Source: Octopus sinensis (taxonomy: Eukaryota). Taken from it: a DNA stretch of 64,000 bases. Positions within the stretch are counted from its first letter, which is position 1; every line of letters begins with the position of its first letter. Of the stretch, positions 20,341 to 50,960 are shown piece by piece. A program made the translations under genes and the position numbers. The stretch covers positions 6,820,001-6,884,000 of the forward strand of contig NC_043020.1 in assembly GCF_006345805.1 (NCBI RefSeq), read 5' to 3'. Under the pieces are notes generated by a model. The model saw only the letters and a list, made by a program, of their open reading frames with translations, was not told the origin of the DNA and searched no databases.

Positions 20341-21924
20341 TATACACAAATAAGAACATAAATGCAAAACAAGGCACAGAAAAAATTAGTTCTCAAAAAA
20401 TGGAGTGAAAGTGATACGCCTATCACAACTGTCTGACGGACATGAATGTGAACCACTGAGTCACAGTCTGCGACAATTTTGTGAGCCATCAAGCCAAGTG
20501 GATTTGGTAGACGGAAACTGAAAGAAGCCCATCGTATATATATATATATATATGCATGTTTGTGTATATATATTTGTGTGTGTGTGTCCTCAACATCACT
20601 TGACAACTGATGTTGGTGTGTTTACGTCTCCATAACTTAGCAGTTCAGCAAAAGATACCGATAGAATAAGTACTAGGCTTACAACGAATAAGTCCTAGGG
20701 TTGATTTGCTCGACTAAAGGCGGTGCTCCAGCATGGCCGCAGTCAAAATGACTGAAACAAGTAAAAGAGTAAAAAGAGTAAATGTTTGTGCTGTACATTT
20801 GCTTACTATGTCCATCAAATCGGTGTTACCTGAACAGGTGGATGGTGTACCACAGGTCAGATGTCGAGGCGATTGGTAAGATGTCGAGGCAATTGGTAAG
20901 ATGTCGAGGCAAAAGGTAATGGCGAACTTCTGCTGACTCTTTCGCCACAACTTTCTCTCACTCTTTCCTCTTGCATCTTTCAGCTCACCTGCAACGGACG
21001 GGCATCCCGTCCAGGTGGGGAACCTATATGCCAAGAAAACCGGGAAACCGGCCCTTATGAGCCAGGTATGGCTCGGGAAGGAACAAACAACAACCCTCAC
21101 CAGCTGAGCATCCCTAATCTTGTGGACTCATAGGTGCTGGTGCCATGTAAAAAGCACCGGCGCTGGTGCCATGTAAAAAGCACCCAGTACACACTGTAAA
21201 GTTGCCTGCATTAGGAAGGGCACCCAGCAGTAGAAACCATGCCAAAACAGACAGGGAGCCTGAACAGCCCTTCAGCTGGCCAACTTCTGTCAAACCATCC
21301 GACCCATGACAACATAAAAAAACAGTTGTTGAATGATATTGATTATGAAATCTGAGTAAAAACCACAAGAGTTGTGATGAAGCAGGTTCATTTATAGAAT
21401 GAGGTTTTTATTGCATAAAATATAGGGTCCATAGTAAAGGGGTTGTGTATGTTGTGTTGTGATAAAATGCTTCTGTGGAGATTATCTGATGTGTGTTTTT
21501 TTTTACATCTGTTTTTCCTTGCTAGCATGGGTTAGTTGCGTACATCAGTGAATCATTGTTTTATTGCTGGATGCCCTTCCTGTTGGGTCATATCCAACCC
21601 AAAAGTTTTTACCCGTTTTATGTTCAATCTGGCCAGATCAGACCTCTCACACTTATCCTACAATGTCACTCTAAAAACAAACAATCCCATCATTGAAATA
21701 CCAAAGCTACAAGGTAATGCATGGGGAATTCAGATCAAAGCAAATATAAGCATTACCATTCCACAGAATAATCTAAAATGCTAAAAGGGGGCCCAATTTT
21801 GCATATAGGCCCCAGGGGTTCATATTTTATGCTTTCAAATACAATATACTGATGATGATAATGATGGTGTATCTTAATTTCTTCTAATATTTCTCTGTTA
21901 TTTTCCAGTATCACCACTCCCACC

Positions 21925-21991
21925 ATGACCACCTCCTCCTACCAAATGGATACTAAATTATTACTCTTCCTACTTCTTTTAATCCACCCTG
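21925..21991 (+). CDS. Coding exon 1 (signal peptide) of TSP1-TSP1-LDLa cell-surface protein; exon starts at 21909
   Basis: Acceptor ttttccag|21909, ATG in CACCATG context at 21925, reads MTTSSYQMDTKLLLFLLLLIHP+G, donor g|gtaagt at 21992. Phase 1 joins in frame to exon 33550 (IHP-V-LSVVMTW). Not in the ORF track. Confidence 0.8.
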
Positions 21992-22430
21992 GTAAGTAAT
22001 TAAACCTTTTTTTAATCATAATTAATCCCAAAAGTATTCCAACATTCACTAACAAAAGTCACATGCCTTCCTGTTAGTTTTTTTCGCTTTTGATCCTATG
22101 TTGTTTTGTTTGTGTTCTTTGCTGTTTGTTGCATATTTTGTTTGTTTACTTTGCCTATTTTGTTTAAATCTTATGTCATCGTTTTAGCTTGTGTTATTTT
22201 TGCTGAACTTCTGGCGTTACATAACAAACTTTTATGCAAAGAAAACATCTCCCATATCACTCGCATGTGTACATATAAATACAGACATTCCTTCACGCAT
22301 AACCATACACACACACGAATATATAAATACACTCACGCACACAAACATAAACACACACATACATAAAACAAAAACACACGCATACATACAGGCACACCCA
22401 CGTATATATATATATATGTTTGTATTCATA

Positions 22431-22815
22431 GGCGCAGGAGTGGCTGTGTGGTAAGTAGCGTGCTTACCAACCACATGGTTCCGGGTTCAGTCCCACTGCG
22501 TGGCATCTTGGGCAAGTGTCTTCTACTATAGCCTCGGGCCGACTAATGCCTTGTGAGTGGATTTGGTAGGCGGAAACTGAAAGAAACCTGTCGTATATAT
22601 ATATGGGTTTGTGTGTCTGTGTTTGTCCCCCTAGCATTGCTTGACAACCGATGCTGGTGTGTTTACGTCCCCGTCACTTAGCGGTTCGGCAAAAAAGAGA
22701 ACGATAGAATAAGTACTGGGCTTATAAAAGAATAAGTCCCGGGGTCGATTTGCTCGACTAAAGGCGGTGCTCCAGCATGGCCGCAGTCAAATGACTGAAA
22801 CAAGTAAAAAAGTAA
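22431..22815 (+). mobile_element. SINE family A, full length
   Basis: Head ggcgcaggagtggctgtgtggtaag...ggttccgggttcagtccc (Pol III A/B-box-like), central microsatellite, tail gactgaaacaagtaaaa. Confidence 0.88.
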
Positions 22816-24054
22816 AATACACAATAAAGAAATGCGTTCGCACACATATACAAACATATGTATAAACACTCATGTATATACGGATGATCACACGTGTATA
22901 TAAACATATATACACCCAATATGGGAATACATACATACGCATACAAATACACACACATACATATGTAAATATAAACACACACACATTTCATATAATCTTC
23001 CACATTCTTTGTACGTTTCACAAACATACACACACAACACATTCTATACATCTTTATATACGCTCTCAGTTTCACTACCACACACCATCGCACACTTTCA
23101 ACAAGCTGCATGAAGGCCTCTACATCCACTGTTTCTCATTCCACAGTCCGCATCACATCTACACGCCACACACATATATATACACCTTTATATATACTGT
23201 TATACACTATCGCACGTTTTATACACTCTACATATAGTCCTGTATACACTCTGCCATACATATCACATCTACACACCATATATACACCTAAGTACATTTA
23301 TATATCATTACATAATATACACCAATTGCCTGTAGTCTTGTGTATATATACGATTAAATCAAGGATATAAAGGAATGTTAGCTGATATACACACACACAC
23401 TTCTGTATATCACACATTTTATACACGCCACAAAGTGCTCTGCACTACAAATATTATACACACTGCATCTAGTCCTCAACGTTGACTGTCCGTCCACACA
23501 GCCATCCCCGTTATACACCCACTGCTTGTTGTCCTCTATATACACTAACATACACCACCAAACACTTTCAACACACCGTAATAAGCCTCTACGTGTCTCC
23601 CTTGTAGTTATCTATATACACCGGTCTATACATCCTCACACAATTTCAGTATGCAACATACAGGCCTCTACACCTTATTATATATACCTATACGTTTCTA
23701 TACACCCACACACATCTTCAATATACAGCACAAATATATATTTATATATATACACAGTCACTAATTCTTGAGCAAAGCACTTCATTTCACGTAGCCCTGC
23801 GATCACCCCAACATCTGAGATGTGGTACACCCTTCACCTGTTCAGGCAACACCAATATGATGGGGAGTGTATATATATATATACACGTTCGGAGTTCAAA
23901 TTCCGCGGAGGTCGACTTTGCCTTTCATCCTTTCGGGGTCAATAAATTAAGTACCAGTTACGCACAGGGGTTGATATAATCGACTTAATCCGTTTGTCTG
24001 TCCTTGTTTGTCCCCTCTGTGTGTAAGCCCCTTGTGGGCAGTAAAGAAATAATA

Positions 24055-24107
<53 letters not shown>

Positions 24108-24961
24108 TATATACGCCTCTGCATCCCGCATCCGATACTCACTGCCTGTAATCCTGTCTATATATATACACGGCCCTACACTGCTATATACACATCCTTA
24201 CGCAATTTCAATACGCAGCATAGAGGTCTCTAAATCTTCCCGTAGGTCTCTTATATACATGACTATACGTTACTATACATCCGCCACACATGCCTCCAAT
24301 GCACAACATATGTACACACCTACTTCGTAAACTCACTATCTGCTATCCTACATACATACATACATATGTATATACATAAGTGTGAAACAAGGTGAAAAAA
24401 GAGTACTCGAATATGTATATATATATATATGTGTTTTTATAGATATAAATATATATATATATATATACATACGCACATACACACTACCATACTCTGTCAC
24501 AGATCTTCAATGCCCAGTATAAGAACCTCTACATCTGTCTGCATCTGTCTATATACACTCACCCACGCTACAAATTAATCGTCTAAACTAGCTGACATGT
24601 TCCCCTACAATAAATACTATTACATGACTATGTGTAATAAGTACTCTCTGTCTTGTCTTCTATATATGTAAATATACACACCACCTTGCACCCCTACACA
24701 TCATATAATCACGCACTATATATATGTATACGCACATGTGTATATATATATATATGCATCCCTCTGGTCTACAATGTTCGTAGACAACTTTTGCTAATCG
24801 TGAGCTCGTCACAGTCTGCCACAGACGGGCATTATTGCTTCCATGTTATAGAATCTCTTTTCTAATTAACATTGGTGTAGACTTCTGGCAAAGGGAGGGA
24901 GGGAGGGAGAGAAAGAGAGAGAGAAAGAGAGAGAGAAAGAGTGTGTGTGAGTCTCTATGTG

Positions 24962-25001
<40 letters not shown>

Positions 25002-25099
25002 TATTGAGATCAAGAGATGAAGAGAAGAGGAAAATAAGTCAGAGACGAATACAGAACCGTTGAATGTAGCTTGTTAAGATTTTTGACTGATGCTATGTT

Positions 25100-25288
25100 T
25101 GTGCATGTGTGTGTGTGTATATATATGTGTGTGTATGTTTATGTGTGTGTGTGTGTGTGTGTGTGTGTTATATATGTGTGTGTGTGTGTTTATATATGTG
25201 TGTGTATGTTTATATATGTGTGTGTGTGTTTATATATGGGTGTGTTTATATATGTGTGTGTGTGTGTGTGTTTGTGTGTGTGTGTATT

Positions 25289-25330
<42 letters not shown>

Positions 25331-26585
25331 TATATATGTGTGTGTGTCTGTGTGTGTTTATATATGTGTGTATGTTTATATATGTGTGTGTGTGTTTATA
25401 TATGTGTGTGTGTATGTTTATGTGTGTGTGTGTCTATGTGTGTGTGTGTGTGTGTGTTTATATGTGTGTGTGTGTGTTTATATATGTGTGTGTGTGTTCA
25501 TATATATATGTGTGTGTGTGTTTATATATGTGTGTCTGTGTGTGTGTTTATATGTGTGTCTGTGTGTGTGTTTATATATGTGTGTGTGTGTGTGTGTTTA
25601 TATATGTGTGTATATATACATGGATATGCATGAATGAGTGTATTTGAGCTAGTGTGCAATTATATATATATATATACGAAATATAGGTGCATGTTTACAA
25701 AGATGCACACACGTGTGCATATGCATTCATAGGTGTGTGTGTATGCATGCCTATACACCCAAACGCACACATGTATACATACACACATACACATACATAC
25801 ACATACCTGTACACATGTATACATATACACATACGCACACATGTATACACACACAACCGTACACATGTATACATACACACAAACGTACACATGTATACAT
25901 ACACACATACGCACACATGTATACATACACACATACGCACACATGTATACATACACACATACGCACACATGTATACATACACACATACGCACACATGTAT
26001 ACATACACACAAACGCACACATGTATACACACCCAAACGCACACACGTATACACACACATACGCACACATGCATACATACACACAAACGCACACATGTAT
26101 ACATACACACATACGCACACATGTATACATACACACATACGCACACATGTATACATACACACATACGCACACATGTATACATACACACATACGCACACAT
26201 GTATACATACACACATACGCACACACGTATACACACACATACGCACACATGCATACATACACACAAACGCACACATGTATACATACACACATACGCACAC
26301 ATGTATACATACACACATACGTACACATACATACATACACACATACGCACACATGCCTACACACACAACCGTACACATGTATACATACACACAAACGCAC
26401 ACATGTATACACACACAAACGTACACATGTATACATACACACATACGCACACATGTATACATACACACATACGTACACATACATACATACACACATACGC
26501 ACACATGCCTACACACACAACCGTACACATGTATACATACACACATACGTACACATACATACATACACACACACACACACCTGTA
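25100..26585. repeat. (TG/TA)n tract followed by a ~26-bp CA-rich minisatellite
   Basis: acgcacacatgtatacatacacacat repeated from ~25760. Confidence 0.9.
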
Positions 26586-26829
26586 CACGTCCATGTCTTT
26601 ACTTCTTGCAGTCGGTTGGGGGGTGTGGCCCGAGCCAAACTTGTTACCCACCCCTCTACAGGGACTCCTGATGGTGTTGTTAGTAAATACACTAATGGTT
26701 GGCCCATTGCCCATTCACCAATGCACTTCGCTGTTTTGTCCCGTTCGCGCCCTCCCCAGCCAATCTCTCTCTCTTTCTCTCTCTCTTCTTTACAACTTGT
26801 TCTGCTCCGACCAAGTTCAACCATCAAAC

Positions 26830-27592
26830 AATTCCTCTCTCTCTCTCTCTCTCCTTTTGTCTCTCTCTCTCTCTCTCTTTCCCGTCGTCTCTCTCTCTCT
26901 CTCCCGTCGTCTCGCTCTCTCTCCCGTCGTCTCGCTCTCTCTGCCTTTGTCTCTTTCTTTCCCTTCATCTCTCTCTCTCTCTCCCTTCATCACACTTTTG
27001 CTCTCTTCGTCTCTCTTTCTCTTCCTTTGTCTCCCTCTCTCTCCCTTTGTCTCTCACTCTCTCCCTTTCTCTTCCTTTGTCTCCCTCTCTCTCCCTTCGT
27101 CTCTCACTCTCTCCCTTCATCTCTCTCTTTCTATCCTTTCGTTTCTCTCTCTCCCTTCGTCTCTCTCTCTCTCTCCCGTCGTCTCGCTCTCTCCCTTTGT
27201 CTCTTTCTTTCCCTTTGTCTCTTTCTTTCCCTTCATCTCTCTCTTTCTCTCCCTTCATCACTCTTTTGCTCTCTTCGTCTCTCACTCTCTCCCTTCATCT
27301 CTCTCTTCGTCTCTTTCTCTCCCTTCGTCTCTCTCTCTCTTTCTCTTCATCTCTCTCTTTCTCTCCCTTCGTGTCTCTCTTTCTCTCCTTTCGTTTCTCT
27401 TTCTCTTCCCTTCATCTCTCTCTCTCTCCCTTTGTCTCTCTCTTTCTCTTCGTCTCTCACTTTCTCTCCCTTCGTGTCTCTCTCTGTCTCCCTATTCCTT
27501 TGTCTTTCTCTCTCCTCCTCTCTTCCTATTCCACTGGCTTCTTTGCTCCCCTCAGACCTACTCATTTCTCTCTCTCTCTCTCTCTCCCTCCC
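26830..27592. repeat. ~760-bp CT-rich polypyrimidine/polypurine tract
   Basis: Degenerate (CT)n with ctctcccttc subunits. Confidence 0.9.
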
Positions 27593-27886
27593 CAGAAACT
27601 TCTCTAACCACCACACCCAATCCTTCTTCCCCACACCACTGTCCCTCCAGAACTCCGCTTCCCTACTCACCTACACCTCCCCCCCCATCAATACAAACTC
27701 CAGCAGTTTTGATTGCGTTGAGGATGAGGAGGCAAGATTGCAAAAAGTCACAGGAGTCAATGAATCCACTTCCTAACCACATGGTTCTAGGTTCAATTCC
27801 ACCATGTGGCATCTTGGATAATTGTCTTCAGGTCTCGTGTCATGTTGACCGATTCTTTAGTATTTGGAAAAAGTTTGTAAACATGT

Positions 27887-28280
27887 AGGTGCAGGAGTGG
27901 CTGTGTGGTAAGTAGCTTGCTTACCAACCACATGGTTCCGGGTTCAGTCCCACTGCATGGCATCTTGGGCAGGTGTCTTCTGCTATAGCCTCGGGCCGAC
28001 CAATGCCTTGTGAGTGGATTTGGTAGACGGAAACTGAAAAAAGCCTGTCGTATATATGTATATATATGTGTATGTGTGTGTGTGTTTGTGTGTCTGTGTT
28101 TGTCCCCCTAGCATTGCTTGACAACTGATGCTGGTGTGTTTTTGTCCCTGTAACTTAGTGGTTCAGCAAAAGAGACCAATAGAATACCAGGCTTCAAAAT
28201 AAGTACAGGGGTCGATTAGTTCGACTAAAATTTCTCACGATGGGGCCCCAGCATGGCCACAGTCAAATGGCTGAAAGGAA
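27887..28280 (+). mobile_element. SINE family A
   Basis: Same head, body and tail. Confidence 0.8.
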
Positions 28281-28669
28281 TATCGTCATCATCATTACCA
28301 TCATCATCATCCTTATCACCTTCATCATGATCATCATCATGATAATTTAACGTCCGCTTCTCATGCTAACGTAGGTTGGATGGCTTGACTGGAACTGGTC
28401 AGCTGGAGACCTGTACCAAGTTCCAGTCTGAATTTGGCTTGGTTTCTACAGCTGGATGCCAGTCCTTCCTAATGCCAACCACTCCAAGAGTGTAGTGGAT
28501 GCACAGCAAAATGCCAAAGGTGACGGTCACTTGTCACTGCCTCTGCCAGACCCCCACATTGGAAGATCATGCTTCACCAACTCGTACCATGTCGTCTTTC
28601 GTCTCCCTCTTCAACAGCTTCCCTCCACAGTTAGAGATCAACGCTTCTTTACACAGCTCTCCTCATATA

Positions 28670-30587
28670 CATCATCATCATCATTGTTTAACATCCGTTT
28701 TCTGTGCTAGCATGGGTTGGATGCTTCGACCGGGGTCTGGGAAGCCAGGAGGCTGCACCAGGCTCCAGTCTGATCTGGCAGTGTTTCTACAGCTGGATGC
28801 CCTTCCTAACGCCAACCACTCTGTGAGTGTAGTGGGTGCTTTTTATGTGCCAGGGGAGGCTGGCAACGGCCATGATCAGTTGGTGCTTTTTACATGCCAC
28901 CAGCACAGAAGCCAGTCAAGGCAGCGCTGGCATTGGTCACATTCAGATGGTGCTTTTTACGTGCCATCCGCACAGGTATCACAATTACCATTTGATTTTT
29001 TTATGCTGATGTACTTGACTCAATAGGTCTCCTAAGCACAGCACGTCGCCCTATGATCCAAGGTAAGCACAGCAGGCCGTCCTGCGATCCAAAGCACTTT
29101 GGAAGGGCTGGGGCTTCTATGTGAAGCTGGTGCAGGAAACAGGCATGACCTCACGTTATTTATCGGGTCTTTGCAGTCACAGCATATCTCCAGAGGTCTC
29201 GGTCTTTCGTCATTGCCTCTGTGAGACCCAACGTTCTAAGGTCATGCTTGACCACCTCATCCCATGTCTTCCTGGGACTAACACTACCCCGGATTCCTTC
29301 AACTGTTTGGGAGTGGCACTTCTTCACACATCTCTCCTCATCCATCCATAGTACATGACCATACCAGCACAAACGTCTCTCTTGTATGCCACACCCGATG
29401 CTTCTTATGTCCAGCATTTCTCTAAGGGCACTTACACTCTGTCGTGTGTGCACACTGACATTACACATCCAGCGGATTATCTCTAGCTTCATTTCTTTCA
29501 AGCCTATGCATATCCTCTGCAGTCACAGCCCATGTTTCATTAACATGAAGCATGGCAGTTCACAGACATGCGTCATACAATCTACTTTTCACTCTGGGTG
29601 AGAGACCCTTTGTCACCAGTAGGGGAAGGAGCTTTCTAAACTTTGCTCAGGCTATTCTTATTTTAGTGGTACCACTCTCTGAGCATCCACCCCACTACTA
29701 ACTTGGTCACCTAGGTAGCGGAAACTATCAACTACTTCTAGTTTCTCCCCCAGGAGTGTAATGGAATCTGTTTTCTGAATATCAATGGTGTCTATTGCCC
29801 TGTGCATCGGCCGCACACAAAAACTATCTTCTCGGTTAATTTTCCTTTGATGTTGCTGCACCTCTTATGTGTCCATAGCTTGCACTGGGTACATCTTATG
29901 GAGTTTCTACCTAAGCCTTTTATACTGATCGAGCAGGGCCACCTACCTGAAGGGGTGTGTGGTAAGTTTGCCTTCCTACTTACTAGAACTTTGGTCTTTG
30001 CTACATTGACTCTAAGGCCTTTTGATTCTAAACCTGAAATTTCTTTTCTAGTTCTGGTAGTGATTCTGCTATGAGGGCCAGGTCATCAGCATAGACGAGC
30101 TTCCAGGGGCAACCCATCTTGAATCCCTCTGTTATTGCCTGGAGGACTATGATGAATAAAAGGGGACTGAGGGCTGAACCTTGGTGGACCCCTACTTCTA
30201 CCTGGAATTCTTCACTATACTCATTGCTAATCCTAACCTTGCTGGCAGCCTCTCTGTATAGGGCCTGTACAACCCTTATTAACCATTCGTCAATCTCCAG
30301 TTTCTGCATCGCCCACCAGATAAGGGATTGGGGGACCCTGTCAAAGGCTTTCTCCAACTTCACAAAAGCTATGTAGAGGGGTTTATCTTTAGCTAGTTAT
30401 TTCTCCTGCAGTTGTCGAACCAGGAATGTGGCACCAGTGGTGCTTCTACCTGGCACAAAACTGAACTGCATCTCATCTAAGCAAACTCTCTCCCTAATAA
30501 GATGGGCTATGACCCTCTCTGTGACCTTCATCACCTGATACAACAGTTTAATAGCCCTGTAGTTATTTCTATCTAGAGCATCACCTA
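28670..30587 (-). mobile_element. 5'-truncated, frameshifted RTE-clade LINE (RT, C-terminus, 3'UTR ending in (GAT)n)
   Basis: Minus-strand peptides LEKAFDRVP, GVHQGSALSPLLF, YADDLAL, LEVVDSFRYLG, RRLCWYGHV; contiguous 3'UTR ends at the catcatcat tract near 28670. Confidence 0.9.
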
Positions 30588-30600
30588 GATATGTCTTTGT

Positions 30601-30975
30601 TTTTTACTGGTTTCATTTTTTGATTGTGGCCATGCTGGAGCACCGTCTTTTAGTCAAAGAAATCGAGCCCTGGATTTATTCTTTGGAAGCCAGGTACTTT
30701 TGCCAAACCGCTAAGTTACGGGGACATAAACACACCAACATCAGTTGTCAAATGATGGTGGGGGAACAAACAGAGACACTAACACATAAACACACACACA
30801 CACACACACACACACAGGCTTCCTTCAATTTCTGTCAACCAAAGCCACTCACAAGGCTTTGGTCGGCTCGAGGCTATAGTAGAAGACACTTGCCCAAGGT
30901 GACACATAGTGGGACTGAACCTGGAACCATGGGGTTGGGAAGCAAGCTACATACCACACAGCCACACCTGTGCCT
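30601..30975 (-). mobile_element. SINE family A
   Basis: Reverse-complement homology. Confidence 0.75.
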
Positions 30976-30992
30976 ACAATTTTATATATATA

Positions 30993-31210
30993 TACTGGAG
31001 TAAACACATAAATGTGAAACAAGGTGGAAAAAAATAGTACTCGAATACCAAAGGTAGAGTAATATGCTTTATTTAAAAGCAGCAGAAATATCACAAAAAC
31101 TGTTACTCAGAGTTTCGCGTTACCGTTTGTCCGCCGAACTCTGTCCACCGAACAAGAACATGAAACTCGTAGTAACAGTTTTTGTGATATTTTTGCTGCT
31201 TTTAAATAAA

Positions 31211-31212
<2 letters not shown>
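30993..31212. mobile_element. Penelope-like fragment with inverted arms and a hammerhead-like motif
   Basis: ctttatttaaaagcagcagaaatatcacaaaaactgttact and its reverse complement; same family at 50618-50795, 57600-57730 and 24375-24412, each next to (TA)n. Confidence 0.6.
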
Positions 31213-31264
<52 letters not shown>

Positions 31265-33549: not shown

Positions 33550-33717
33550 TGCTGTCGGTTGTGATGACATGGGGTCCCTGGGGATCTCTTTCTGGCTGCT
33601 CGAAGACTTGTGGATTTGGCACTGAAGAAAGGACACGCTATGTTGTCGTCGACGGTAGGGAGGACGAGGAGAAAAAAGAAACTCAAATATCTCAATGTTA
33701 TCTTACACACTGTCCAG
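33550..33717 (+). CDS. Coding exon 2: thrombospondin type-1 repeat 1
   Basis: Polypyrimidine tract + cag acceptor; VLSVVMTWGPWGSLSGCSKTCGFGTEERTRYVVVDGREDEEKKETQISQCYLTHCP (WxxW, CSxTCG, RxR); donor g|gttagt; 168 nt, phase 1-1. Confidence 0.93.
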
Positions 33718-39466: not shown

Positions 39467-40099
39467 TTACTCATTTTTTACTTCAAATAATTACATAAAC
39501 CCTGGAAATTTACAAACCTCATTATCAAAAAATGCTGTAAAATATTCACTTTCCTTTGCGTATTTAGCAATGAGCATAAATTCATTTGAGACTTCTGTTG
39601 TGTTGGCATCCAACAAATGTACAAATAGTGAAATTTCAGTGTTTTTTCCATCCAGAGTCAATTGAAGCATCAGCTTCTTCTGTGCTGTTGAGGGCAGTGG
39701 TTCAAATCCAGGGTCCATATCTTTCTTTTATTCCTTTTGCATGTTTCAGTCATTTGACTGCAGCCATGCTGGAGCAATGAAACATGTAGCCTGGATTTTT
39801 ATTTACGCCATTCCCTAATTCTTGGATATATATGTGTGTGTGAGTGTCAAGTGTCCCCTGCTAGCACTTGACAACTGGTGTTGGTGTGTTTACATCCCCG
39901 TATCACTAGAAACTGATAGAAAAAGGACCAAGCTTAAAAAAATTAAGTACCTGTTTGACTAAAATTCTTCGAGGCAGTGCCCCAGCATGGCCACAGTCTT
40001 ATGACAGAAACAATTACAAAAATCATAAAAAGAATAATACACTGAATTAACCCATTCCTTTAATAATGTTTCCTTTTTTTTCTTTTATATATTTCACAG

Positions 40100-40273
40100 T
40101 TGATGGCAATTGGACTTTATGGAGCGGATGGTCAGTGTGTACCAAGAACTGTGGTCCAGATGGTGTCCAGAAACGAGTAAGGCTCTGTTCCGCACCATAT
40201 CCTAGCTATGAAGGTAAAGATTGTACGGGACCTTCATCAGAAACTAAGCCCTGTGAAAATGATCCATGTCCCC
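40100..40273 (+). CDS. Coding exon 3: thrombospondin type-1 repeat 2
   Basis: Acceptor tttcacag; VDGNWTLWSGWSVCTKNCGPDGVQKRVRLCSAPYPSYEGKDCTGPSSETKPCENDPCP (6-Cys TSP1, WxxWxxW); donor c|gtaagt; 174 nt, phase 1-1. Confidence 0.95.
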
Positions 40274-40394
40274 GTAAGTTGACACAGAATTCTAAACCAT
40301 TTTCAGAGTTTTCTTTTTCTTTTTTTCTCATTACCATTTCTTCTGGGGCAGAGCACTGAGTTGGGAAAATTTTTAGCTTGCCCCCGGAAATGTG

Positions 40395-41238
40395 CTTTGC
40401 TGCATTTCATCCATCTGTCTTTACATTCTGAGTTCAAATTCTGCCGAGGTCAACTTTGCCTTTCATCCCTTCAAGGTCGATTAAATAAAAACCAGTTAAG
40501 TGCTGGGATCAGTGTAATCTACTAGCGCCCTTCCCTCAAATTTCAGGCCTTGTGTCTATAGAAGAAAAGATTATCATCATCATCAAGGCAGCAAGCTAGG
40601 TGAAATGCTTAGTGGCATTTCATCTGTCTTTACATTCTGAGTTCAAATTCCACCAAAGTCAACTTTGGCTTTCATCCTTTTTTGAGGTTGATAGATTAAG
40701 TACCAGTTATGCACTGAGGTTGATCTAATTGACTTATCTCCTTTTCAGGCTTTGTGCCTATAGTAGAAAGGATTATTATTATTATTATTACTAAGATGGT
40801 GAGCTGGCAGAGTTGCTATGACACCTGGCGAAATGCTTAGCAGTATTTTGGCTGCCGCTATGTTCTGAGGTTCAAATTCCACTATGGTTGACTTCACCTT
40901 AAATCTTTTCGGGGGTCGATAAATTAAGCACCAGTGAAACACTTCGAATTACCCCCCTCCATAAATTTCAGGCCTTGTGCCTATAGTAGAAAGGATTATT
41001 ATTACTACTACTACATAAAGTAGTGGGGGGGGGCTGGCAGAATTGTTAGCACGCTTGATGAAATGCCTGGTGGTATTTCGTCTGCCACTATATGTTCTGA
41101 GTTCAAACTCCACTGAGGTCAATTTTGCTTTTCATCTTTTCGGGGTCGATAAATTAAGTACCAGTGAAACACTGGGGTTGATGTAATCAACTGTCCCCCT
41201 CCCTCAAAATCTGAGGCCTTGTGCCTTTAGTAGACACA
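40395..41238 (+). mobile_element. Head-to-tail cluster of ~4 SINE family B copies
   Basis: Repeated ttctgagttcaaattc..actttgcctttcatcc..gtaccag units separated by (ATT)n/(ATC)n/(ACT)n. Confidence 0.75.
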
Positions 41239-41471
41239 ATTAGTATTATCTAACCTGTAATTATCCTTATCAACAGCATGATCATTGCTGTTGTCTTCAA
41301 AGCCATCATCATCGATATCATTGCTATTATCATAACCATCATCATCATTACTATCACTAAACCAACCTCCACCACCACAACCTTTCACTGCCATCGCCAT
41401 CCTTTTTCCAAGATCTAAAAACCCTACTCATTCAAATGCTTACCTTTTTTTCCTCTTCTTTTGTTTTCCAG

Positions 41472-41701
41472 AAGTACCTCCAGACTTTGACATCAGTGTG
41501 TGTAAAAAAGAAAACAAAAGTATATTTATATGTAATAGTGAGACTCACTGTATTCCGATGACAGAACGGTGTGATAAAATATTACATTGCAACGATGGAA
41601 GCGATGAACTCAGGTGTTGGTTAAAATCTCAAAGTGGTAAGGTTCCTGCAAGTCTTGGCACTTTGCTTCTTTCTGCAGCCTTATTTTCTCTTTCTTTATG
41701 A
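41472..41701 (+). CDS. Coding exon 4: LDL-receptor class A domain; internal donor after 41636, or read-through into hydrophobic tail A ending at TGA 41699-41701
   Basis: Acceptor ttttccag; QVPPDFDISVCKKENKSIFICNSETHCIPMTERCDKILHCNDGSDELRCWLKSQS (6 Cys, DxSDE), then GKVPASLGTLLLSAALFSLSL*; phase-1 donor g|gtaagg at 41637. Confidence 0.9.
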
Positions 41702-41895
41702 CTGGTGACATGCAAGGGAAGATCTGTTTCACCCACCCTAGGCATGGCAAAATACTTGTTGAAATTCATGTGTGTACAAACATATATATTTATATATATA
41801 TGAGTCAACTTGCCATATAACAGCTGTTTGGAAATCTGTTGGCATACATACCTACATAATGTATATGGATGTATTTTTATGTGTATAGTGTTATA

Positions 41896-42299
41896 GGCAC
41901 AGAAGTGGCTGTGTCGTAGGTGGCTTGTCTACCAACCACATGGTTCCGGGTTCAGTCCCACTGCGTGGCACCTTGGGCAAGTGTCTTTTACTATAGCCTC
42001 GGGCCGACCAAAGCCTTGTGAGTGGATCTGGTAGATAGAAACTGAAAGAAGCCCGTCGTATATATGTATATGTATGTGTGTGTATATGTTTGTGTGTCTG
42101 TGTTTGTCCCCCTAGTATTGCTTGACAACCGATGCTGGTGTGTTTATGTCCCCGTCACTTAGCAGTTCGGCAAAAGAGACCGATAGAATAAGTACTGGGC
42201 TTACAAAAGAATAAGTCCCGGGGTCGAGTTGCTCGACTAAAGGTGGTGCTCCAGCATGGCCGCAGTCAAATGACTGAAACAAGTAAAAGAGTAAAAGAA
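41896..42299 (+). mobile_element. SINE family A
   Basis: Same head, body and tail. Confidence 0.85.
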
Positions 42300-43212
42300 T
42301 ATATATATATATATATATATACATACACATACAACCAAACACACAGAGGCATATCTCAACCTATGTTGTTTTTTGACTGTGTTTTTGTTTTCAAGGAATG
42401 AAAAAAATAAACCTAAACTTCTGTCAATTTATTTAACTTTATGTTGGTTTCAGTGAAAATATTTAAAAACAATTTTTTTTTTTTTTTAAATAAAACACTT
42501 AAGAACGAATACTGAAGTGAAAAATGAAATGAAATACTTGTGAGAATATATTTAAACCATTTACTAAAACAATTCGGCTAATAAATTTTTGTGTTATTTT
42601 TCAAGTTAGGTCACATGTCTTGGAACCAATTACTGGCATAATTTGAGGTATATCTGTGTGTATATATGTCTGTATATATGATTAGTAAGAAAGATAGGTA
42701 GACAGATGTATGTGTGTGTGTGTGTATAGTGGACTATAATTAAATATATTCATAAATAAATATATAGTTAGGTAGATGTCTACATGCATAAACTTACTAT
42801 ACACTTACTATATATACATATACATACACAAATGATATACACTTGTGTTTATCATAATTTCTCATACATGTATATAGAGTGAGAAGAAAAATATAATTAT
42901 TAAATTTAATTAGAGGATATGTAAACCTCATAGAAGGATGGTTCCATTCAAGGAAATACTGGTTCAATACCTAGTATTTGGGTGGAATGAATTTCCTTAA
43001 AATAATGGGTATATACAAAAATATATAGTTTACATTCATTGAAAAGAAGAAAAGAAAATGGAGATTAGGAAGTTCATAATTGTTTTTCATTGGTCATCTT
43101 CATTTTCTTTTCTTATATATATATATATACACATATATACACACACACACACACGTGCATATATGTGCATGCATACTTTCATAAAGACATACACTCAAAA
43201 GTACATTACTCT

Positions 43213-43419
43213 TTACTCTTTTACTTGTTTCAGTCATTTGACTGCGGCCATGCTGGAGCACCGCCTTTAGTCGAGCAACTTGACCCCGGGACTTATTCTT
43301 TTGTAAGCCCAGTACTTATTCTATCGGTCTCTTTTGCCGAACTGCTAAGTGATGGGGACGTAATCACACCAGCATCGGTTGTCAATCGATGTTGGGGGGA
43401 CAAACACAGACACACATAT

Positions 43420-43470
<51 letters not shown>

Positions 43471-43626
43471 TACGACGGGCTTCTTTCAGTTTCCATCTAC
43501 CAAATCCACCCACAAGGCTTTGGTCGGCCCGAGGCTATAGTAGAAGACACTTGCCCATGGTGCCACGCAGTGCGACTGAACCCGGAACCATGTGGTTGGT
43601 AAGCAAGCTACTTACCACACAGCCAT
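43213..43626 (-). mobile_element. SINE family A (inverted relative to 41896-42299)
   Basis: Reverse complement, near-identical to the 41896 copy. Confidence 0.85.
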
Positions 43627-43634
43627 ATAATGTA

Positions 43635-44460
43635 TATTGTGTCTCCCATAAATAATGTGGTTTTTTCAATTGAATGAACTTAAAGCTGGAGGGGATAAAC
43701 TACCTGCATCTATTTGCTATAAAAGCAGGTAGTAATTTTACCTTGTACTTATTCTTAGTGCAAGTTCTGAAGAGTGCAGTTCGATTTTAAGTTATTTTTT
43801 CAAAGATATAATGGAAGTGACAAAGGAGCATATTTGGAATAGTTTGCTTTATGATTGCAATAAAGGCAACAATGGAATGGAAAGTGTGGGGAACATTAGT
43901 GCAGTATATGGGGATCAGGCAATAAGCGTAAGCCAGTATCAACAGTGGTTCCAGAAATTCCCAAGTCGGAAACTACAGCCTAGAAGACAAGCCTTATCCT
44001 GGAAGATCTGTAGAGCTCAATGAGGAGGTCCTGCAAACCCTGGTAGAACAAAATGTCATTGTAACTGTTGAGGAACTAGCAGAGAAGCTTGGATTTGGTC
44101 ATTCAATCATTCATCGATTGCTGTGCTTGAAGGAAAACGACCATCTTTGGCTTCAAGACGAAAGGTGTTCCTCCATCAGGATAATGCTCAGCCACATACA
44201 GCAAGGATGGCATTCCAAAGGCTGGAGCAATTTGAATGGGAAACGATGCCCCACCCATCCTGTTTGCCAGACATTGCCCCATCTAATTATCATTTATTCT
44301 GCAGTCTTTAAAATCATTTGGATGGAAAAAATATGAATTCTGTAGATGGGATCAGAACAGTACTGGAAGAGTATTTTTCATCATGGACAAGTGAATTTTG
44401 GAAGAGGGGCCTTGCAAATCTACCAGATAGATGGAAGGGCTTTGTAGAAAATGAAGGAGA
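43635..44460 (+). mobile_element. Degenerate mariner transposon with internal deletion
   Basis: HTH-like EHIWNSLLYD..AVYGDQAISVSQYQQWFQKF; catalytic region LHQDNAQPH..PHPSCLPDIAPSNYHLF (degenerate YSPDLAPSDYHLF); frameshifts and stops. Confidence 0.88.
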
Positions 44461-45595
44461 GAATGAAAGGCAAAGTCGACTTTGGTGGAATTTGAACACA
44501 GAACGTCAGGCTGGGAGAAATGCTGCTAAGTATCTTGCCTGGCATGCTAACGATTCTGCCAGCTCAATAATAATAATTACAACAACAATAATAATAATAA
44601 TAATAATAATGACAAAAAAAATCATCTCTGATGTATTCTAAAAAAAGAATAGGATCCAAGTTCTGTGTTAGCAACAATAAAAACATAAAATGCAACCGTT
44701 GCATCTTCAGAACACACAGAATCGAACAACGGAATTAGGAAGTTATATAACAGTAATTTATAATATTAGGAAAAAAATAAATAAATGTGCCAAGGCCACC
44801 TTGAAGAGGGGAAAAAATTAATTAAGATCACTAATAATATCGTGTTAGATAAAGAAAACGGAGAGATAATGGAATCAGACCAAAACACTAGGAAATAGCT
44901 GGGAATCAATGAACTAGATAGGGTAGAATACGCAAATGGAACAGTGAGGAAGAAATATTGGAGAGGTATCGCTCTGTCGTTTGAGATGGAGTTAATTGAA
45001 AAAAAGAAAAGAAAATGTAAAGTGGTTAAGTGGCTGTATGGTTTAGAAGCTTGCTTCTCAACCACTTGGTTTCAGGTTCAATCCAGTTCCACGTCAAACC
45101 ATCCAACCCATGTCAGCATGGAAAACAGACATTAAATGATGATTGGGTGTGTGTGTGTGTGAGAAGTTTTGATAAACATTGTTTTTGCTGGCCTTGTGTC
45201 AAAATTTGAAATCATTTATTACAAGACAAAGGCACCGAACTGGCTGAACCATTTGCATGCTGGGTAAAATGCAAAGAGGCATTTCATCCGTTTTTACGTT
45301 CTTGGCTCAGATTCTGCAGAGGTTGTGTCTGCCTGTCAATATTTTGGGGTTGATAAAATAAGTACCAGTTGAGTACTGGTGTCAAAGCAATCAATTACCA
45401 CCCTTCCCTCGAAATTGCTGGCCTTGTGCCAAAATTTGAGAGTGTTACTATTATTATAATTATTGAAGGTAATAATTTGGCAAAACTGCTAAAAATTGAG
45501 GGGAAAATACCTTCTGGTTCATGATGCCCCCTTTCCTCTTTCTAAGGTCGATAATAATGTAACAGTCAATTACTGGGATAGATATCTTTATATGC

Positions 45596-45626
<31 letters not shown>

Positions 45627-45658
45627 TATGCACACACACATATACATACATATATATT

Positions 45659-45887
45659 TCTTTACTACCCACAAGGGGCTAAACACAGAGGGGACAAACA
45701 AGGACAGACAAAGGGATTAAGTCGATTATATCGACCCCAGTGCGTAACTGGTACTTAATTTATCGACCCCCGAAATGATGAAAGGCTAAGTCAACCTTGG
45801 TGGAATTTGAACTTGGCACGTAACAAGAGACGAAATACAGCTATGCATTTCGCCCGGCGTGCTAACGTTTCTGCCAGCTCACCGCTT
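45659..45887 (-). mobile_element. SINE family B, full length
   Basis: Reverse complement of 56809-57045. Confidence 0.8.
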
Positions 45888-46049
45888 TAACATACATACA
45901 TACAAATACACACACACAAAAATACATACACACACAAGCAGACACACCTCAAATTTCTCTCTCTTGCACACGCTCAACTCAACACAGACCAATTTTTATT
46001 ACAACTGAGAAAAGTATCTGTTAAACTCACGCTCTCTCTTCATAAATGC

Positions 46050-46665
46050 ATTTGTGTGTGTGTGTATCTGTATATATATGTGTAAATATGTATATATATA
46101 TATGTGTGCATATGTATATATATATATATGCGTATATATATGTATATATGTATATGTGTATATATATGTATATATATATATATATGTGTGTATATATATG
46201 TATATATATATATATGTGTGTATATATATGTATATATATATATATGTGTGTATATATATGTATATATATATATGTGTGTATATATATGTATATATATATA
46301 TATGTGTGTATATATATGTATATATATATATATGTGTGTATATATATATGTATATATATATATATATGTGTGTGTATATATATGTGTAAATATGTATATA
46401 TATGTGTATATATATGTATATATATATATATGTGGTGTATATATATGTATATATATATATATGTGTGTATTATATATGTATATATATATGTATAATATAT
46501 ATATGTGTGTGTATATATATGTATATATATATGATATATATATATATGTGGTGTATATATATGTATATTATATATATATATGTATATATATATGTGTATA
46601 TATATGTATAATATATATATATGTGTATATATATGTATATATATTATATATGCGTATATATATAG
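46050..46665. repeat. TA/TG compound microsatellite
   Basis: Seen directly; similar tracts at 4240-4695, 13010-13520, 17375-17660, 60825-61705 and 62010-63290. Confidence 0.95.
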
Positions 46666-46926
46666 GTTTAGAGTGTTTGGCATTAGGAATGGCTTCCAGC
46701 TGTAGAAACCCTGCCAAATCAGGTTGGAACCTGGTGCAGCTCCCTGGTTTACCATCCAACTCATGCCAACATGGAAAGTGAACATTAAATGATGATGGTG
46801 AGATATATATAATATATATATATGTATATTCATAAACTCACATATACAAATACATTTATATGGTGTATAAACCTGTATGTATGTATATGTATATATATAT
46901 ATATATATATATACGACACACACATC

Positions 46927-46958
<32 letters not shown>

Positions 46959-47242
46959 CATATACCACACACACACATCTATATATATATATATATATGC
47001 CTTGACCGTTTAACTCACACATTTTTTTCCCTCTCCATCTATTTTCTTTCCTCGTCTATCCTTTCTGCAGAAGAGGGTAGGTTTGAAACGTTAGAGACAC
47101 TTTACATTTTTTCTGAACATAGACCTAATTCACTGTTTTTTGCTCTTCATTGGTTTTTATTCTTCATATTTTTGGACCTCATATTCATATATATATATAT
47201 ATATATATGGGAAGGTTTGGAGATGATGTACAGGTATTTTAT

Positions 47243-47380
47243 TTTAGAAGAAATGAGGTACTCAGAAAATCGGATGGTTTATATTTACAGATATTTATTT
47301 GTATAAAAAATGTGATATGCAAATAAATATCTGTAAATATAAACCATCTGATTTTCTGAGTACCTCATTTCTTCTAATAT
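47243..47380. repeat. Inverted repeat (~60-bp arms) in (TA)n
   Basis: tagaagaaatgaggtactcagaaaatc..tatttatttg versus caaataaata..gattttctgagtacctcatttcttcta. Confidence 0.85.
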
Positions 47381-47761
47381 ATATATATATATATATATCA
47401 CTATCATCATCATCGTTGTTTAACATCCACTTTCGATGTTGGCATAGGTTTGACAGTTTGATTGGCAAGACAATTGGCTGTACCAGGCTCCAATCTGATT
47501 TGGCAAGGTTTCTACAGCTGAATGCCCTTCCTAATGCCAACAACTCCAAGAATGTAGTGGGTGTTTTTTACGTACCACCAGCACAGAAGCCTGTGAAACA
47601 GTACAGGCACTGGCCATGCTCAAATGGTGCTTTTTACATGTCACTGGCACAGGTGTCAGTCAAGCGGCACTGGCATTCATCATGCTCAAATGGTGCTTTT
47701 TACGTGCCACCAGTATGGGTGCCAGTCAGACAGCACTAGCGTCACTCACACTTGAATGGTG

Positions 47762-47796
<35 letters not shown>

Positions 47797-48074
47797 AGAT
47801 TGCTGGCCACTAAACCTTTTTCTATTTTCTCTCTGTTTATTTTTTGTGTTCCTTTCTGTCGAACCACAGAATATATATATATACATACACACACACACCA
47901 ATACATACATATATATACACACACACACACCAATACATACATCATGTGACCGACCAGTCCATCAGATGTAGTTACACATCGCTGGTCACAATGCGTTCGC
48001 ATTGCTTTAGCCTTTGAATGACGCCACCCCGCTGGCTAAGCGAGCAGGCCACATACAAATATATACACATATAT

Positions 48075-48122
<48 letters not shown>

Positions 48123-48494
48123 CACACAAATTTATACATAAACATATACACACACACATATAAACACATATATATACACACATGTATATACATATACACA
48201 CATACATATACAAACACACAAATATATATGTACACATATACACACACAAATATATATATTGTTGCTATTTTGAAAAAGTGTTGTAAGTCCAAAACATTGC
48301 TTTTCTTCAGAAAGCGAAAAAATAGTTTCACCATTCCATAGCAAAACCGTTGTACCACACTTTGACAATGTTTGATATTTTGGCATCTGAAGTAGCTGGA
48401 GATACGATAGTTTGACCAAAAGAACTGGCTATTGCAAGCAAAAATATATAATGAAAATTATATATTTGGACATACGACAATTTAACATAGTAGG

Positions 48495-48539
<45 letters not shown>

Positions 48540-49174
48540 ATGATAAATCTCAGAGCGAGTTATAGGGCACAGATAGTGTGTCTATAGCCAGCTGGAGGAG
48601 ATATCTTCCTAGGGCTACAAACTACAGTAGCATCCACCCTTAGGGGTTAGCCATATTCAAATGGCAAATATGCATCACTATATATATATATATAAAGCAG
48701 ATAAGTTAGAGCTTGAAGTCTGTCCAATAGTGCTAAATCAATCTACCATTTCCTTCATCAATTATTATCTCAACAGACCTAGATCCAGAGGAAACATACC
48801 CCAACCATGGATGTTACCAGGTAGCCCAAGCTGTGAACACACTAACTGACATATACCCATTTGTCCAAAAAATTACATATATATATATATATATACACCA
48901 ATTATATACATTTTTATTATTTCTTTGCAATTTACTTAATCATTGCTATTTTATTGTTATTTTAATATTTCTATTATATGTAATTTTCTAGATGGTGTAA
49001 TTTAATTGTTCATTTTCAATAGATAAAAGGTGTTTTTTTCTAATTTTTTTTTGTATATATATATATATATATAATATATATTATATTGTGAAATTTGATT
49101 TAGTATTTCTAAATTGAATTTTTTCCCTGTAAGTTAGGATTAATATTCCCTCAAATAATTATTATATATATATA

Positions 49175-49605
49175 CACAAATATAAGAGAGAATCCACTAT
49201 GTGGATGCTCTTGCGCTAAAAATAGATCCGCAATGATCTCAACCACCAAGAATTGTTCTCAAGAAAAATTAGCACAACTATGAACGTAAATGAGCAGGAC
49301 AAATGAAAAATAACAAAAATGTAGATTAACCCTAGACAATTGTTTCACTGTTTATAAATTATGCAATTTTTTCAGGATTCGTCATGAATATAATTTGTTG
49401 TGTAAGTAAAATTGCATAATTTATTAACAGTGAAGCAATCGTCTGGGGTTAATCTACATTTTTGTCATTTTTCATTTGTCCTACTCACTTACGTTCATAG
49501 TTGTGCTAATTTTTCTTGAGAACAATTCTTGGTGGTTGAGACCATTGTGGATCTATTTTTAGCACAAGAGCGTTCACATAGTGGATTCTCTCTTATATTT
49601 GTGTA
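49175..49605. repeat. Imperfect long inverted repeat (~195-bp arms, ~40-nt spacer), Penelope-like
   Basis: 49175-49369 is the reverse complement of ~49408-49605; embedded among (TA)n. Confidence 0.85.
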
Positions 49606-49983
49606 TTAATATTTACTGAATCCCAGTTCTAATGCGCTAAACCACTTGGTGTTAAATTGGTGTTATTAAATTAATATTCAATTTTTTACCCTTATTTTTG
49701 ATTTTACATATATATATATATATATATCTAATGAAGGATAAAATTTTTTTCGAAAAAATATGTTCCTTTTCAAAAAAAATTTTATCAATGGCCAGCATAT
49801 CAAAAAATACCTTTAAAGGTTAAATCTATAAACAATTCATAATTAAGGGCAAACGAAAACATTTCTAATGCCAGATATGCTGAAAAATTGGACATATTGT
49901 CCATTAACCATATAATTTTTTCACAATATGCACGCTACTTGAAAAAAGGTCGACAGAAATTTCTAAAACATTCCATTATTACC

Positions 49984-50038
49984 ATATCGGACCAATTTCA
50001 GGGTTAGCTTATAACACCCCTCCCTTCGTCAGTGATAC
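49984..50038 (-). ncRNA. Hammerhead ribozyme motif, near intact
   Basis: Minus strand gtatca-CTGACGA-aggg(...)ccct-GAAA-ttgg-TC-cgatat; one mismatch at the base of stem I. Confidence 0.6.
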
Positions 50039-50580
50039 ATGTGGCAAAAGAAATAAATGAGATACTTACTCATACCCATGGAAGAAGCGAACACTAAGTC
50101 ATGAGCACAATTAAGTACCCCAAATACATCCAAAATAGAAATACTCTCGTTTGACCTTAATTATGAATTGTTTATATATATATATACATGTAAAAATGCA
50201 TATTACGTACACAATGACACAATAAAATACGTACAATGTATAGTGAGTGTAGAACTGGATGTGAGACAAGCACAGAACATCCCTAATTCCTCATCAGTTA
50301 TCAACCAGATGGTATTACTCAGTCTCAAACTTTCAATGAAGAAGCTGAGAACCTCCCATGCTGGTGCTGCCCAAACACTTCAGCAATGTAACTACACACA
50401 TGCTGTTGGTGCTTGTTTTATTTATTCATTTATCTTTTCTCTCTTTGGATTTTTCCCTTTCTGACAAAGAGCTAATGCTCAAAACATCAAAGACTCTCTT
50501 TTTACCAAGCATCAAATTAATACAATAAGTGTCCACGTCTTCTTGGTGTTTGTTATTTTTAATTTTCATTAATTGGATTT

Positions 50581-50620
<40 letters not shown>

Positions 50621-50877
50621 CGGAGTAAGCACATAAATGTGAAACAAGGTGGAAAAAAAGACTACTCAAATACCAGAGGTAGAGTAACATGCTTTATTTA
50701 AAAGCAGCAGAAATATAACAAAAGCTGTTACTCGGAGTTTCACGTTTCCGTTCGTCGGGCAGTTCTGTTATATTGCTGCTGCTTTTAAATAAAGTATATA
50801 TATACATACACACACACGTATATACATACATACATACATAATCATGCTAATAATTTTTTTTTTCTTTTCTTTTCCAG

Positions 50878-50960
50878 CTAGCTTCATGTCGTGGCATTTA
50901 GTACAAGGCTTCTATCTGACACTATGGCCAATGTTAACTGCACTCATCCTGGCCAGCTGA
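50878..50960 (+). CDS. Candidate terminal coding exon (hydrophobic GPI-like tail B)
   Basis: Strong acceptor ttttttttttcttttcttttccag; phase-1 join to 41636 gives ASFMSWHLVQGFYLTLWPMLTALILAS* (TGA 50958-50960); AATAAA at 51259. Confidence 0.7.

What the first reader, a model, noticed from the sequence alone, without database searches (positions are those of the whole stretch)
21909..50960. Hidden spliced gene: signal peptide-TSP1-TSP1-LDLa-GPI-like tail, matching the N-terminal architecture of complement C6 but without MACPF
Seen: five small exons spread over 29 kb splice GT-AG in phase 1 into one 212/218-aa ORF; the signal-peptide exon and tail B are not in the ORF track in their coding frames. 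Established: TSP1-TSP1-LDLa is the N-terminal module order of terminal complement C6, where it precedes the MACPF pore domain. The first TSP1 here has only 4 Cys; WxxW (C-mannosylation) and CSKTC (O-fucosylation) motifs are present. Inference: a small membrane-tethered recognition, adhesion or decoy protein, possibly an undescribed molluscan family. The C6 resemblance could be convergent exon shuffling, since all exons are symmetric phase 1.
Basis: partly seen in the sequence, partly recalled or inferred. Interest (0 to 1): 0.75.

Follow-up and report, generated by a model that had tools for sequence, protein, structure and literature searches.

The report
Octopus surface protein echoing complement C6
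This is a real, spliced and already annotated octopus gene, shared with cuttlefish and clams, for a small protein predicted to be tethered to the cell surface and likely to act in adhesion or as a co-receptor; its domain order copies the front of the immune protein C6, a likeness that has likely been published already and that the domain-by-domain comparisons here do not single out.

Summary
Five GT-AG exons joined by phase-1 introns give signal peptide-TSP1(4 Cys)-TSP1(6 Cys)-LDLa-hydrophobic tail. The 218-aa form equals the last 218 residues of RefSeq XP_029650492.1, 'SCO-spondin-like', Octopus sinensis, so the gene is not hidden. Contigs from 4 of 4 probable RNA runs join exon 3 to exon 4 and leave at the donor towards tail B. 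One copy was found in the genome, with orthologues in Argonauta, cuttlefish and ark clam. The tail keeps a GPI-signal-like layout across these species. Sharma et al. (bioRxiv 10.1101/2022.04.21.489004) already name an O. sinensis TSP1+LDLa 'SCO-spondin-like' transcript, likely this gene, as donor of the C6 N-terminus. My per-module tests give that no special support. TSR2 matches thrombospondin-1 far better than C6, and its best C6 match is the C-terminal TSP1. No C6-C9 chain is among the top 60 of 84 LDLa hits. Other mollusc proteins also end in TSP1-LDLa-tail. Best reading: an uncharacterised, mollusc-conserved, likely GPI-anchored adhesion or co-receptor protein whose C6-like order probably arose by convergent module shuffling.

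The parts
21909..21991 (+). Exon 1 of the window: short leader, ATG at 21925, most of the predicted signal peptide; acceptor at 21908 joins upstream exons outside the window
   Evidence: the signal peptide is inferred from a hydrophobic core and a V-x-S end, SignalP not run
33550..33717 (+). Exon 2: end of signal peptide and TSR1 (4 Cys, WGPW, CSKTCG; predicted long beta-hairpin in place of the third disulfide loop)
   Evidence: Pfam TSP_1 34.2 bits; model pLDDT above 90
40100..40273 (+). Exon 3: TSR2 (6 Cys, thrombospondin-1/properdin type)
   Evidence: Pfam TSP_1 50.7 bits; covered by contigs in 4 of 4 runs
41472..41636 (+). Exon 4: PPDFD linker, LDLa module and the start of the candidate omega region
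   Evidence: Pfam Ldl_recept_a 29 bits; joined to exon 3 in 4 of 4 runs
41637..41701 (+). Tail A: read-through past the exon-4 donor, hydrophobic end, TGA at 41699-41701; minor or species-specific at best
   Evidence: matches O. bimaculoides models P0003/P0005; contigs in 4 of 4 runs leave the genome at 41636
50878..50960 (+). Exon 5 coding part: tail B, GPI-signal-like C-terminus, TGA at 50958-50960
   Evidence: identical to RefSeq P0002/P0004; homologous tails in Argonauta and cuttlefish; heuristic layout test
50961..51264 (+). Likely 3' UTR with simple repeats; first AATAAA at 51259
   Evidence: the transcript end is inferred

Best explanation
The gene is spliced into a 218-aa precursor that is predicted to lose its signal peptide and its hydrophobic tail, leaving a roughly 165-aa TSP1-TSP1-LDLa rod likely held on the outer cell surface by a GPI anchor, where it would act as an adhesion or co-receptor molecule. 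Shown: the exon structure, the exon 3-4 splice, use of the exon-4 donor, the domain content, one copy found in the genome, and conservation from octopus to ark clam. Predicted: two tandem TSR folds like thrombospondin-1 repeats 2-3; C-mannosylation of WxxW and O-fucosylation of CSKTC (motif meanings recalled); cleavage near Ser189-Ser191. Inferred: the TSRs bind glycans, matrix or a partner receptor, and any signal passes through a transmembrane partner because there is no cytoplasmic part. The LDLa module is probably a membrane-proximal spacer or altered binding site: the Asp before its fifth Cys is His or Asn, and the aromatic residue two before Cys-Asp is missing in the cephalopods. The C6-like order most likely arose independently by shuffling of phase-1 modules.
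For: Splicing and RefSeq identity. Orthologues of 213-218 aa with the same layout in Argonauta (71%), cuttlefish (57%) and ark clam (about 40%). The ark clam protein's best TSR2 and LDLa matches among 44 genome hits both lie in this locus. An Atlas cluster of 64 proteins, mostly Mollusca, carries TSP_1 (100%) and LDLa (97%). A small-residue triplet lies exactly 29 residues from the end, followed by a hydrophobic run and no cytoplasmic domain, in 7 of the 10 family sequences tested, although tail identity between octopus and clam is only 3 of 26; the other three are tail A (triplet at 24) and two with non-hydrophobic ends. Best structural match is thrombospondin-1 TSR2-3: Foldseek E 3.4e-11; Z 9.1, rmsd 4.0 over 108 residues. 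Unrelated long mollusc proteins also end in TSP1-LDLa, 3 of the 4 examined with a hydrophobic tail, so the pairing recurs without C6.
Against: No ligand, tissue or localisation data. The GPI test is my own heuristic without a chance control; NetGPI, PredGPI and SignalP were not run. Clam tails end in KLRR, which could mark a short transmembrane anchor instead. C6 does align colinearly over all three modules (E 5.6e-5; profile E 2.7e-13; Foldseek E 4.7e-7, 32% identity over 163 columns, rmsd 10.3). Properdin ranks first or tied first for the family profile and for the clam protein, so a complement-related role is not excluded. The LDLa and tail part of my model is unreliable (pLDDT under 50 at 169-199).
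Confidence: 0.6

Rival explanations
1. The gene is a surviving relative of the ancestral TSP1-TSP1-LDLa gene that fused with an MPEG-1/MACPF gene to make the chordate C6 N-terminus, as proposed by Sharma et al.
For: Same module order as C6 and as amphioxus/tunicate C6-like proteins (PMC11312191). CLANS clustering of LDLa proteins put a TSP1+LDLa mollusc cluster near C6-C9. Colinear C6 match. TSR1 has no Cys right after its R-x-R strand, and its best single-domain PDB matches are F-spondin and TRAP; from recall, C6's N-terminal TSRs are also of that spondin type.
Against: TSR1: C6 ranks 19-20 of 32, E 0.067. TSR2: C6 ranks 37-38 of 51, E 0.036, and the match is to its C-terminal TSP1 (residues 565-611), against E 1.1e-12 for a single thrombospondin-1 repeat. 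LDLa: no C6-C9 chain in the 60 shown of 84. The clam orthologue's best C6 stretch is also the C-terminal TSP1. TSP1-LDLa ends recur in other mollusc proteins. From recall, most human C6 introns do not fall at module borders. The family was found only in molluscs here.
Confidence: 0.15
2. It is a surface-bound complement regulator or decoy: a properdin-like binder of mollusc C3/factor B, or a shield against MACPF pore formers.
For: Properdin is the top or tied-top PDB sequence match for the family profile and the clam protein. Molluscs have C3 and factor B. GPI anchoring is typical of complement regulators (recalled).
Against: The properdin scores are sums over several generic repeats. No CCP domains. 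One copy found and steady conservation, with no expansion. No MACPF match was seen in this genome (an exon-wise search, so weak evidence).
Confidence: 0.15
3. The tail is a short uncleaved transmembrane anchor, as in nematode MIG-21, or the protein is released into mucus or haemolymph.
For: Best 19-residue hydropathy of 1.2-2.1 in the 8 family sequences with a hydrophobic tail, and clam tails end in basic residues. MIG-21 is a TSR-containing transmembrane protein.
Against: The hydrophobic run ends at or within 6 residues of the C-terminus, the small-residue triplet keeps its spacing, and the tail sequence is not conserved.
Confidence: 0.1

Closest known systems
O. sinensis 'SCO-spondin-like' XP_029650492.1 / XP_036368912.1, and XM_036513019.1 of Sharma et al. 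2022 (bioRxiv 10.1101/2022.04.21.489004)
   Same: The XP records are this gene letter for letter over 218 aa. The preprint's transcript has the same species, name and TSP1+LDLRA content, with mollusc homologues.
   Different: That XM_036513019.1 encodes XP_036368912.1 is inferred, not verified (searches found no paper to check it). The preprint's main text has no 'GPI' or 'signal peptide'. The name is a best-hit label: true SCO-spondins are thousands of residues long (recalled).
Complement C6 and amphioxus/tunicate C6-like proteins
   Same: TSP1-TSP1-LDLa order after a signal peptide.
   Different: No MACPF, EGF, CCP or FIMAC; ends in a membrane-anchor signal; no module is closest to the matching human C6 module.
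Thrombospondin-1 type-1 repeats and properdin
   Same: Best sequence and fold matches for the TSR pair.
   Different: Those are secreted multi-repeat oligomers. Here there are two TSRs, the first with 4 Cys, plus LDLa and an anchor.
C. elegans MIG-21
   Same: A membrane protein with thrombospondin repeats, needed for neuroblast polarity and migration (passages); two TSRs and small size are recalled.
   Different: No LDLa (recalled); transmembrane; homology not tested.
Long mollusc TSP1n-LDLa proteins (XP_078312808.1 oyster, XP_021367027.1 scallop, XP_076472746.1 Babylonia)
   Same: They end in TSP1-LDLa-hydrophobic tail.
   Different: 11-14 TSRs plus SRCR, VWA or IgGFc domains; their LDLa scores at most 19.9 bits against the family LDLa profile, so they are not shown to be orthologues.

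Membership tests
Terminal complement C6-C9 / C6-like | MACPF domain after LDLa | tested here: not met
   ORF stops 31-36 residues after the LDLa SDE motif in all octopus models; Pfam finds no MACPF
Terminal complement C6-C9 / C6-like | TSP1-TSP1-LDLa N-terminal order | tested here: met
Terminal complement C6-C9 / C6-like | Each module closest to the matching human C6 module | tested here: not met
   (PDB sequences only)
Terminal complement C6-C9 / C6-like | Affinity to amphioxus/tunicate C6-like modules and shared intron positions | not testable with these tools
   no such sequences were returned by my searches; the preprint's figure 3 and supplements could not be seen
SCO-spondin | Giant protein with VWD, TIL, many LDLa then many TSRs (recalled) | tested here: not met
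   218 aa, two TSRs then one LDLa
BAI/ADGRB adhesion GPCR | GAIN and seven-transmembrane domains | tested here: not met
   one C-terminal hydrophobic run; no such Pfam hit
TSP1 domain (PF00090) | Score above the curated cut-off, WxxW and CSxxC motifs | tested here: met
   34.2 and 50.7 bits against 21.6
TSP1 domain (PF00090) | Six cysteines | tested here: not met
   TSR1 has 4 in all 15 aligned family sequences; TSR2 has 6. Only 8 of 1463 pattern-matched repeats in 193 other stored proteins lacked the middle pair
LDLa (PF00057) | Six Cys and D-x-S-D-E motif | tested here: met
   29 bits against 24.1; alignment
LDLa (PF00057) | Full acidic calcium cage and ligand-stacking aromatic (roles recalled) | tested here: inconclusive
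   Asp before Cys5 is His or Asn and the W/Y seen in LRP2 repeats is Glu in octopus; binding not testable
GPI-anchored proteins | N-terminal signal, omega site, spacer, hydrophobic C-terminus without cytoplasmic tail | tested here: inconclusive
   layout met by my heuristic in 8 of 10 family sequences; no validated predictor or biochemistry

The most novel reading that the evidence does not exclude
This mollusc-wide, GPI-tethered TSP1-TSP1-LDLa protein is the living free-standing form of the arm that chordates fused to MACPF to build C6, and it still works on the cell surface as a binder of C3-family complement, making it a testable proxy for the pre-MAC ancestor.
Probability: 0.1. Interest if true: 0.7.

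Novelty: already known. Interest (0 to 1): 0.3.

Why it matters
The gene is annotated and its C6 likeness has most likely been published, so the surprise is low. It remains a functionally unstudied protein kept from octopus to clams. New here are the conserved GPI-like tail on its own exon, the rare 4-Cys first TSR, and per-module results that weaken the published idea that this gene donated the C6 N-terminus. If that idea held after all, the protein would offer a handle on how the membrane attack complex was assembled.

Tried and rejected
The profile search of 1.84 billion representatives was swamped by multi-repeat TSP1 proteins: 1 of the best 150 was a family member, so the range outside molluscs stays untested. 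The first fold (15 sequences, pLDDT 39.8) was discarded; for the second alignment I left out P0186, P0211 and P0212 as misaligned and added generic TSP1 proteins. The MACPF family search of this genome gave 0 matches from 6 candidates; this is no proof of absence. No cover on tail A (41639-41790) in 4 of 4 runs: contigs drop rare forms, so tail A is not excluded. No run was on record as RNA; the RNA label is the tool's guess. Junctions 21991/33550, 33717/40100 and 41636/50878 were not seen directly in reads and rest on RefSeq/GenBank models, on homologues and on contig lengths. A scan for extra in-frame exons behind acceptors with 17 or more of 20 pyrimidines found no further domain exon, but that cut-off would miss 2 of the 5 real acceptors. 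Rfam: 0 hits. Earlier scan notes: none. Literature searches with no hit; one search found the module string only in a C6 context. PMC11431876 mentions SCO-spondin-like proteins in octopus mucus, but neither UniProt accession of this gene is in its main text; its supplements were not read. No complex prediction was run, as no binding partner is claimed.
Full report
Observation. From ATG 21925 they give 212 aa (tail A, read-through at 41636) or 218 aa (tail B). Pfam calls TSP_1, TSP_1 and Ldl_recept_a above cut-off on exons 2, 3 and 4, and nothing on exons 1 and 5. A six-frame motif scan found no other TSP1 or LDLa exon in the window.

The gene is already annotated. Exon 3 finds one cluster of 6 proteins: O. 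sinensis XP_029650492.1 and XP_036368912.1 ('SCO-spondin-like'), O. vulgaris CAI9740313.1 and CAI9740314.1, and O. bimaculoides XP_014789123.1 and XP_052832159.1 ('BAI1/ADGRB1-like'). The spliced 218-aa form equals the last 218 residues of XP_029650492.1 and differs from the O. vulgaris protein at one residue. The names are best-hit labels; the protein has neither the size of SCO-spondin nor a GPCR part. The longer models add N-terminal residues from exons about 19 and 21 kb upstream of the window. These differ between species and are absent in Argonauta, so they are probably 5' UTR.

Splicing. I laid 4 of the 24 listed runs, from 4 studies, all guessed by the tool to be RNA. In 4 of 4, one contig carries 40100-40273 directly next to 41472-41636 and then leaves the genome sequence at 41636, with 142-440 further letters. 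Two runs go on for exactly 196 letters, which would end in a CT repeat of the exon-5 3' UTR, and one run has 381 letters upstream of exon 3 against 379 expected from the three upstream exons. This fits tail B but does not show it directly. The other junctions were not seen in reads. Tail A occurs in the O. bimaculoides models only, and a Sepia model reads through the same donor into an unrelated, non-hydrophobic end, so tail A is a minor or species-specific form or a model artefact.

Family. Full-length relatives with the same layout are Argonauta hians (71%), a cluster with Sepia pharaonis (57%), a cluster with the ark clam Tegillarca granosa (about 40%) and one unnamed clam-like cluster. In this genome each exon finds only itself at high identity; the next hits are at most 52% identical for TSR2 and E 0.005 or weaker for TSR1 and LDLa. 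The clam protein's best TSR2 and LDLa hits both lie in this locus. The ESM Atlas has a matching cluster of 64 proteins, TSP_1 100%, LDLa 97%, commonest phylum Mollusca; it may be the protein's own cluster. TSR1 has four cysteines in all 15 aligned sequences, a rare state (8 of 1463 pattern-matched repeats in 193 other stored proteins). The range beyond molluscs is untested, because the deep search was swamped by repeat proteins.

Anchor. Tail sequence is not conserved from octopus to clam (3 of 26 identical), but its layout is. A small-residue triplet (SQS, SRS, NAG/NSG, NGS) lies 29 residues from the end, followed by a spacer and a hydrophobic run with no cytoplasmic domain, in 7 of 10 family sequences tested; tail A has it at 24, and two variant ends fail. 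This is the layout of a GPI signal (recalled), and the intron falls at that site. The test is my own heuristic without a chance control.

Structure. The second model (45 sequences, mean pLDDT 76, TSRs mostly above 90, LDLa and tail unreliable) matches thrombospondin-1 TSR2-3 best (E 3.4e-11; Z 9.1, rmsd 4.0, 108 residues). In TSR1 a long beta-hairpin (45-73) is predicted where the third disulfide usually sits. In the LDLa module the Asp before Cys5 and the aromatic before Cys-Asp, both seen in the LRP2 repeats, are replaced in octopus, so classic lysine-type ligand binding is likely weakened (roles recalled).

The C6 question. The order matches C6 and chordate C6-like proteins (PMC11312191, passages), and C6 aligns colinearly but weakly (rank 31 of 43, E 5.6e-5; profile E 2.7e-13; Foldseek E 4.7e-7, rmsd 10.3). 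Module by module C6 is not special. TSR1 ranks C6 19-20 of 32. TSR2 ranks it 37-38 of 51 and hits the TSP1 after MACPF, not the second N-terminal one; the clam orthologue does the same. LDLa shows no C6-C9 chain in the 60 listed of 84. Four long mollusc proteins picked also end in TSP1-LDLa, three with hydrophobic tails, so the pairing recurs. In favour of a link, TSR1 leans to the spondin type, which from recall is the type of C6's N-terminal TSRs.

Literature. Sharma et al., bioRxiv 10.1101/2022.04.21.489004 (I read passages, section 12 whole and the first of two parts of section 17), report an RNA-seq-supported O. sinensis 'SCO-spondin-like' ORF, XM_036513019.1, with TSP1 and LDLRA domains, mollusc homologues and no vertebrate orthologue. 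They propose that it fused with an MPEG-1-like gene to give C6-like proteins, and they note that TSP1-LDLRA pairs occur in several mollusc genes. Species, name, domains and accession series suggest it is this gene; I could not verify the XM-XP link. Their figure 3 and supplements, which bear on this and on exon phases, could not be seen, and the journal version was not held. Also seen as passages only: PMC11593599, PMC12439895 on MIG-21, PMC11431876. Searches turned up no functional study of this protein.

Verdict. A real, expressed, annotated gene of a mollusc-conserved family, most likely a GPI-anchored adhesion or co-receptor protein (0.6). The C6 resemblance is real in order, likely already published, and probably convergent. 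Interest 0.3.

Noticed in passing
window 29160-30396, minus strand (intron 1): Broken LINE-like retrotransposon remnant; the 30031-30396 frame matches Pfam RVT_1 (E 2.3e-13).
   Followed up: partly
window 7954-8774: Tandem array of 13 copies of a 63-bp unit, 97% alike; similar units are scattered elsewhere in the window and look like part of a dispersed repeat. Its Pfam Vitelline_membr hit is likely a repeat artefact.
   Followed up: partly
window 43932-44641, plus strand (intron 4): Two overlapping frames that read like a decayed mariner transposase by eye (recalled likeness); no Pfam hit at E 0.01.
   Followed up: partly
window 40385-41240 (intron 3): Several copies of a very abundant short interspersed repeat, with summed contig depth above 100,000 in the laid runs.
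   Followed up: no
P0046, P0061, P0080 (oyster, scallop, Babylonia): Long mollusc proteins with 13-14 TSRs end in one LDLa and a GPI-like tail, suggesting a recurring TSP1-LDLa-anchor cassette in molluscs.
   Followed up: partly
G000 whole genome: No MACPF match at E 0.01; an exon-wise search, so only a lead that octopus may have few or divergent MACPF genes.
   Followed up: no
P0188 and P0190 (cuttlefish-type cluster): Variant C-termini diverge at the same exon-4 donor, one highly charged and without a hydrophobic run; possible soluble isoforms or assembly artefacts.
   Followed up: no
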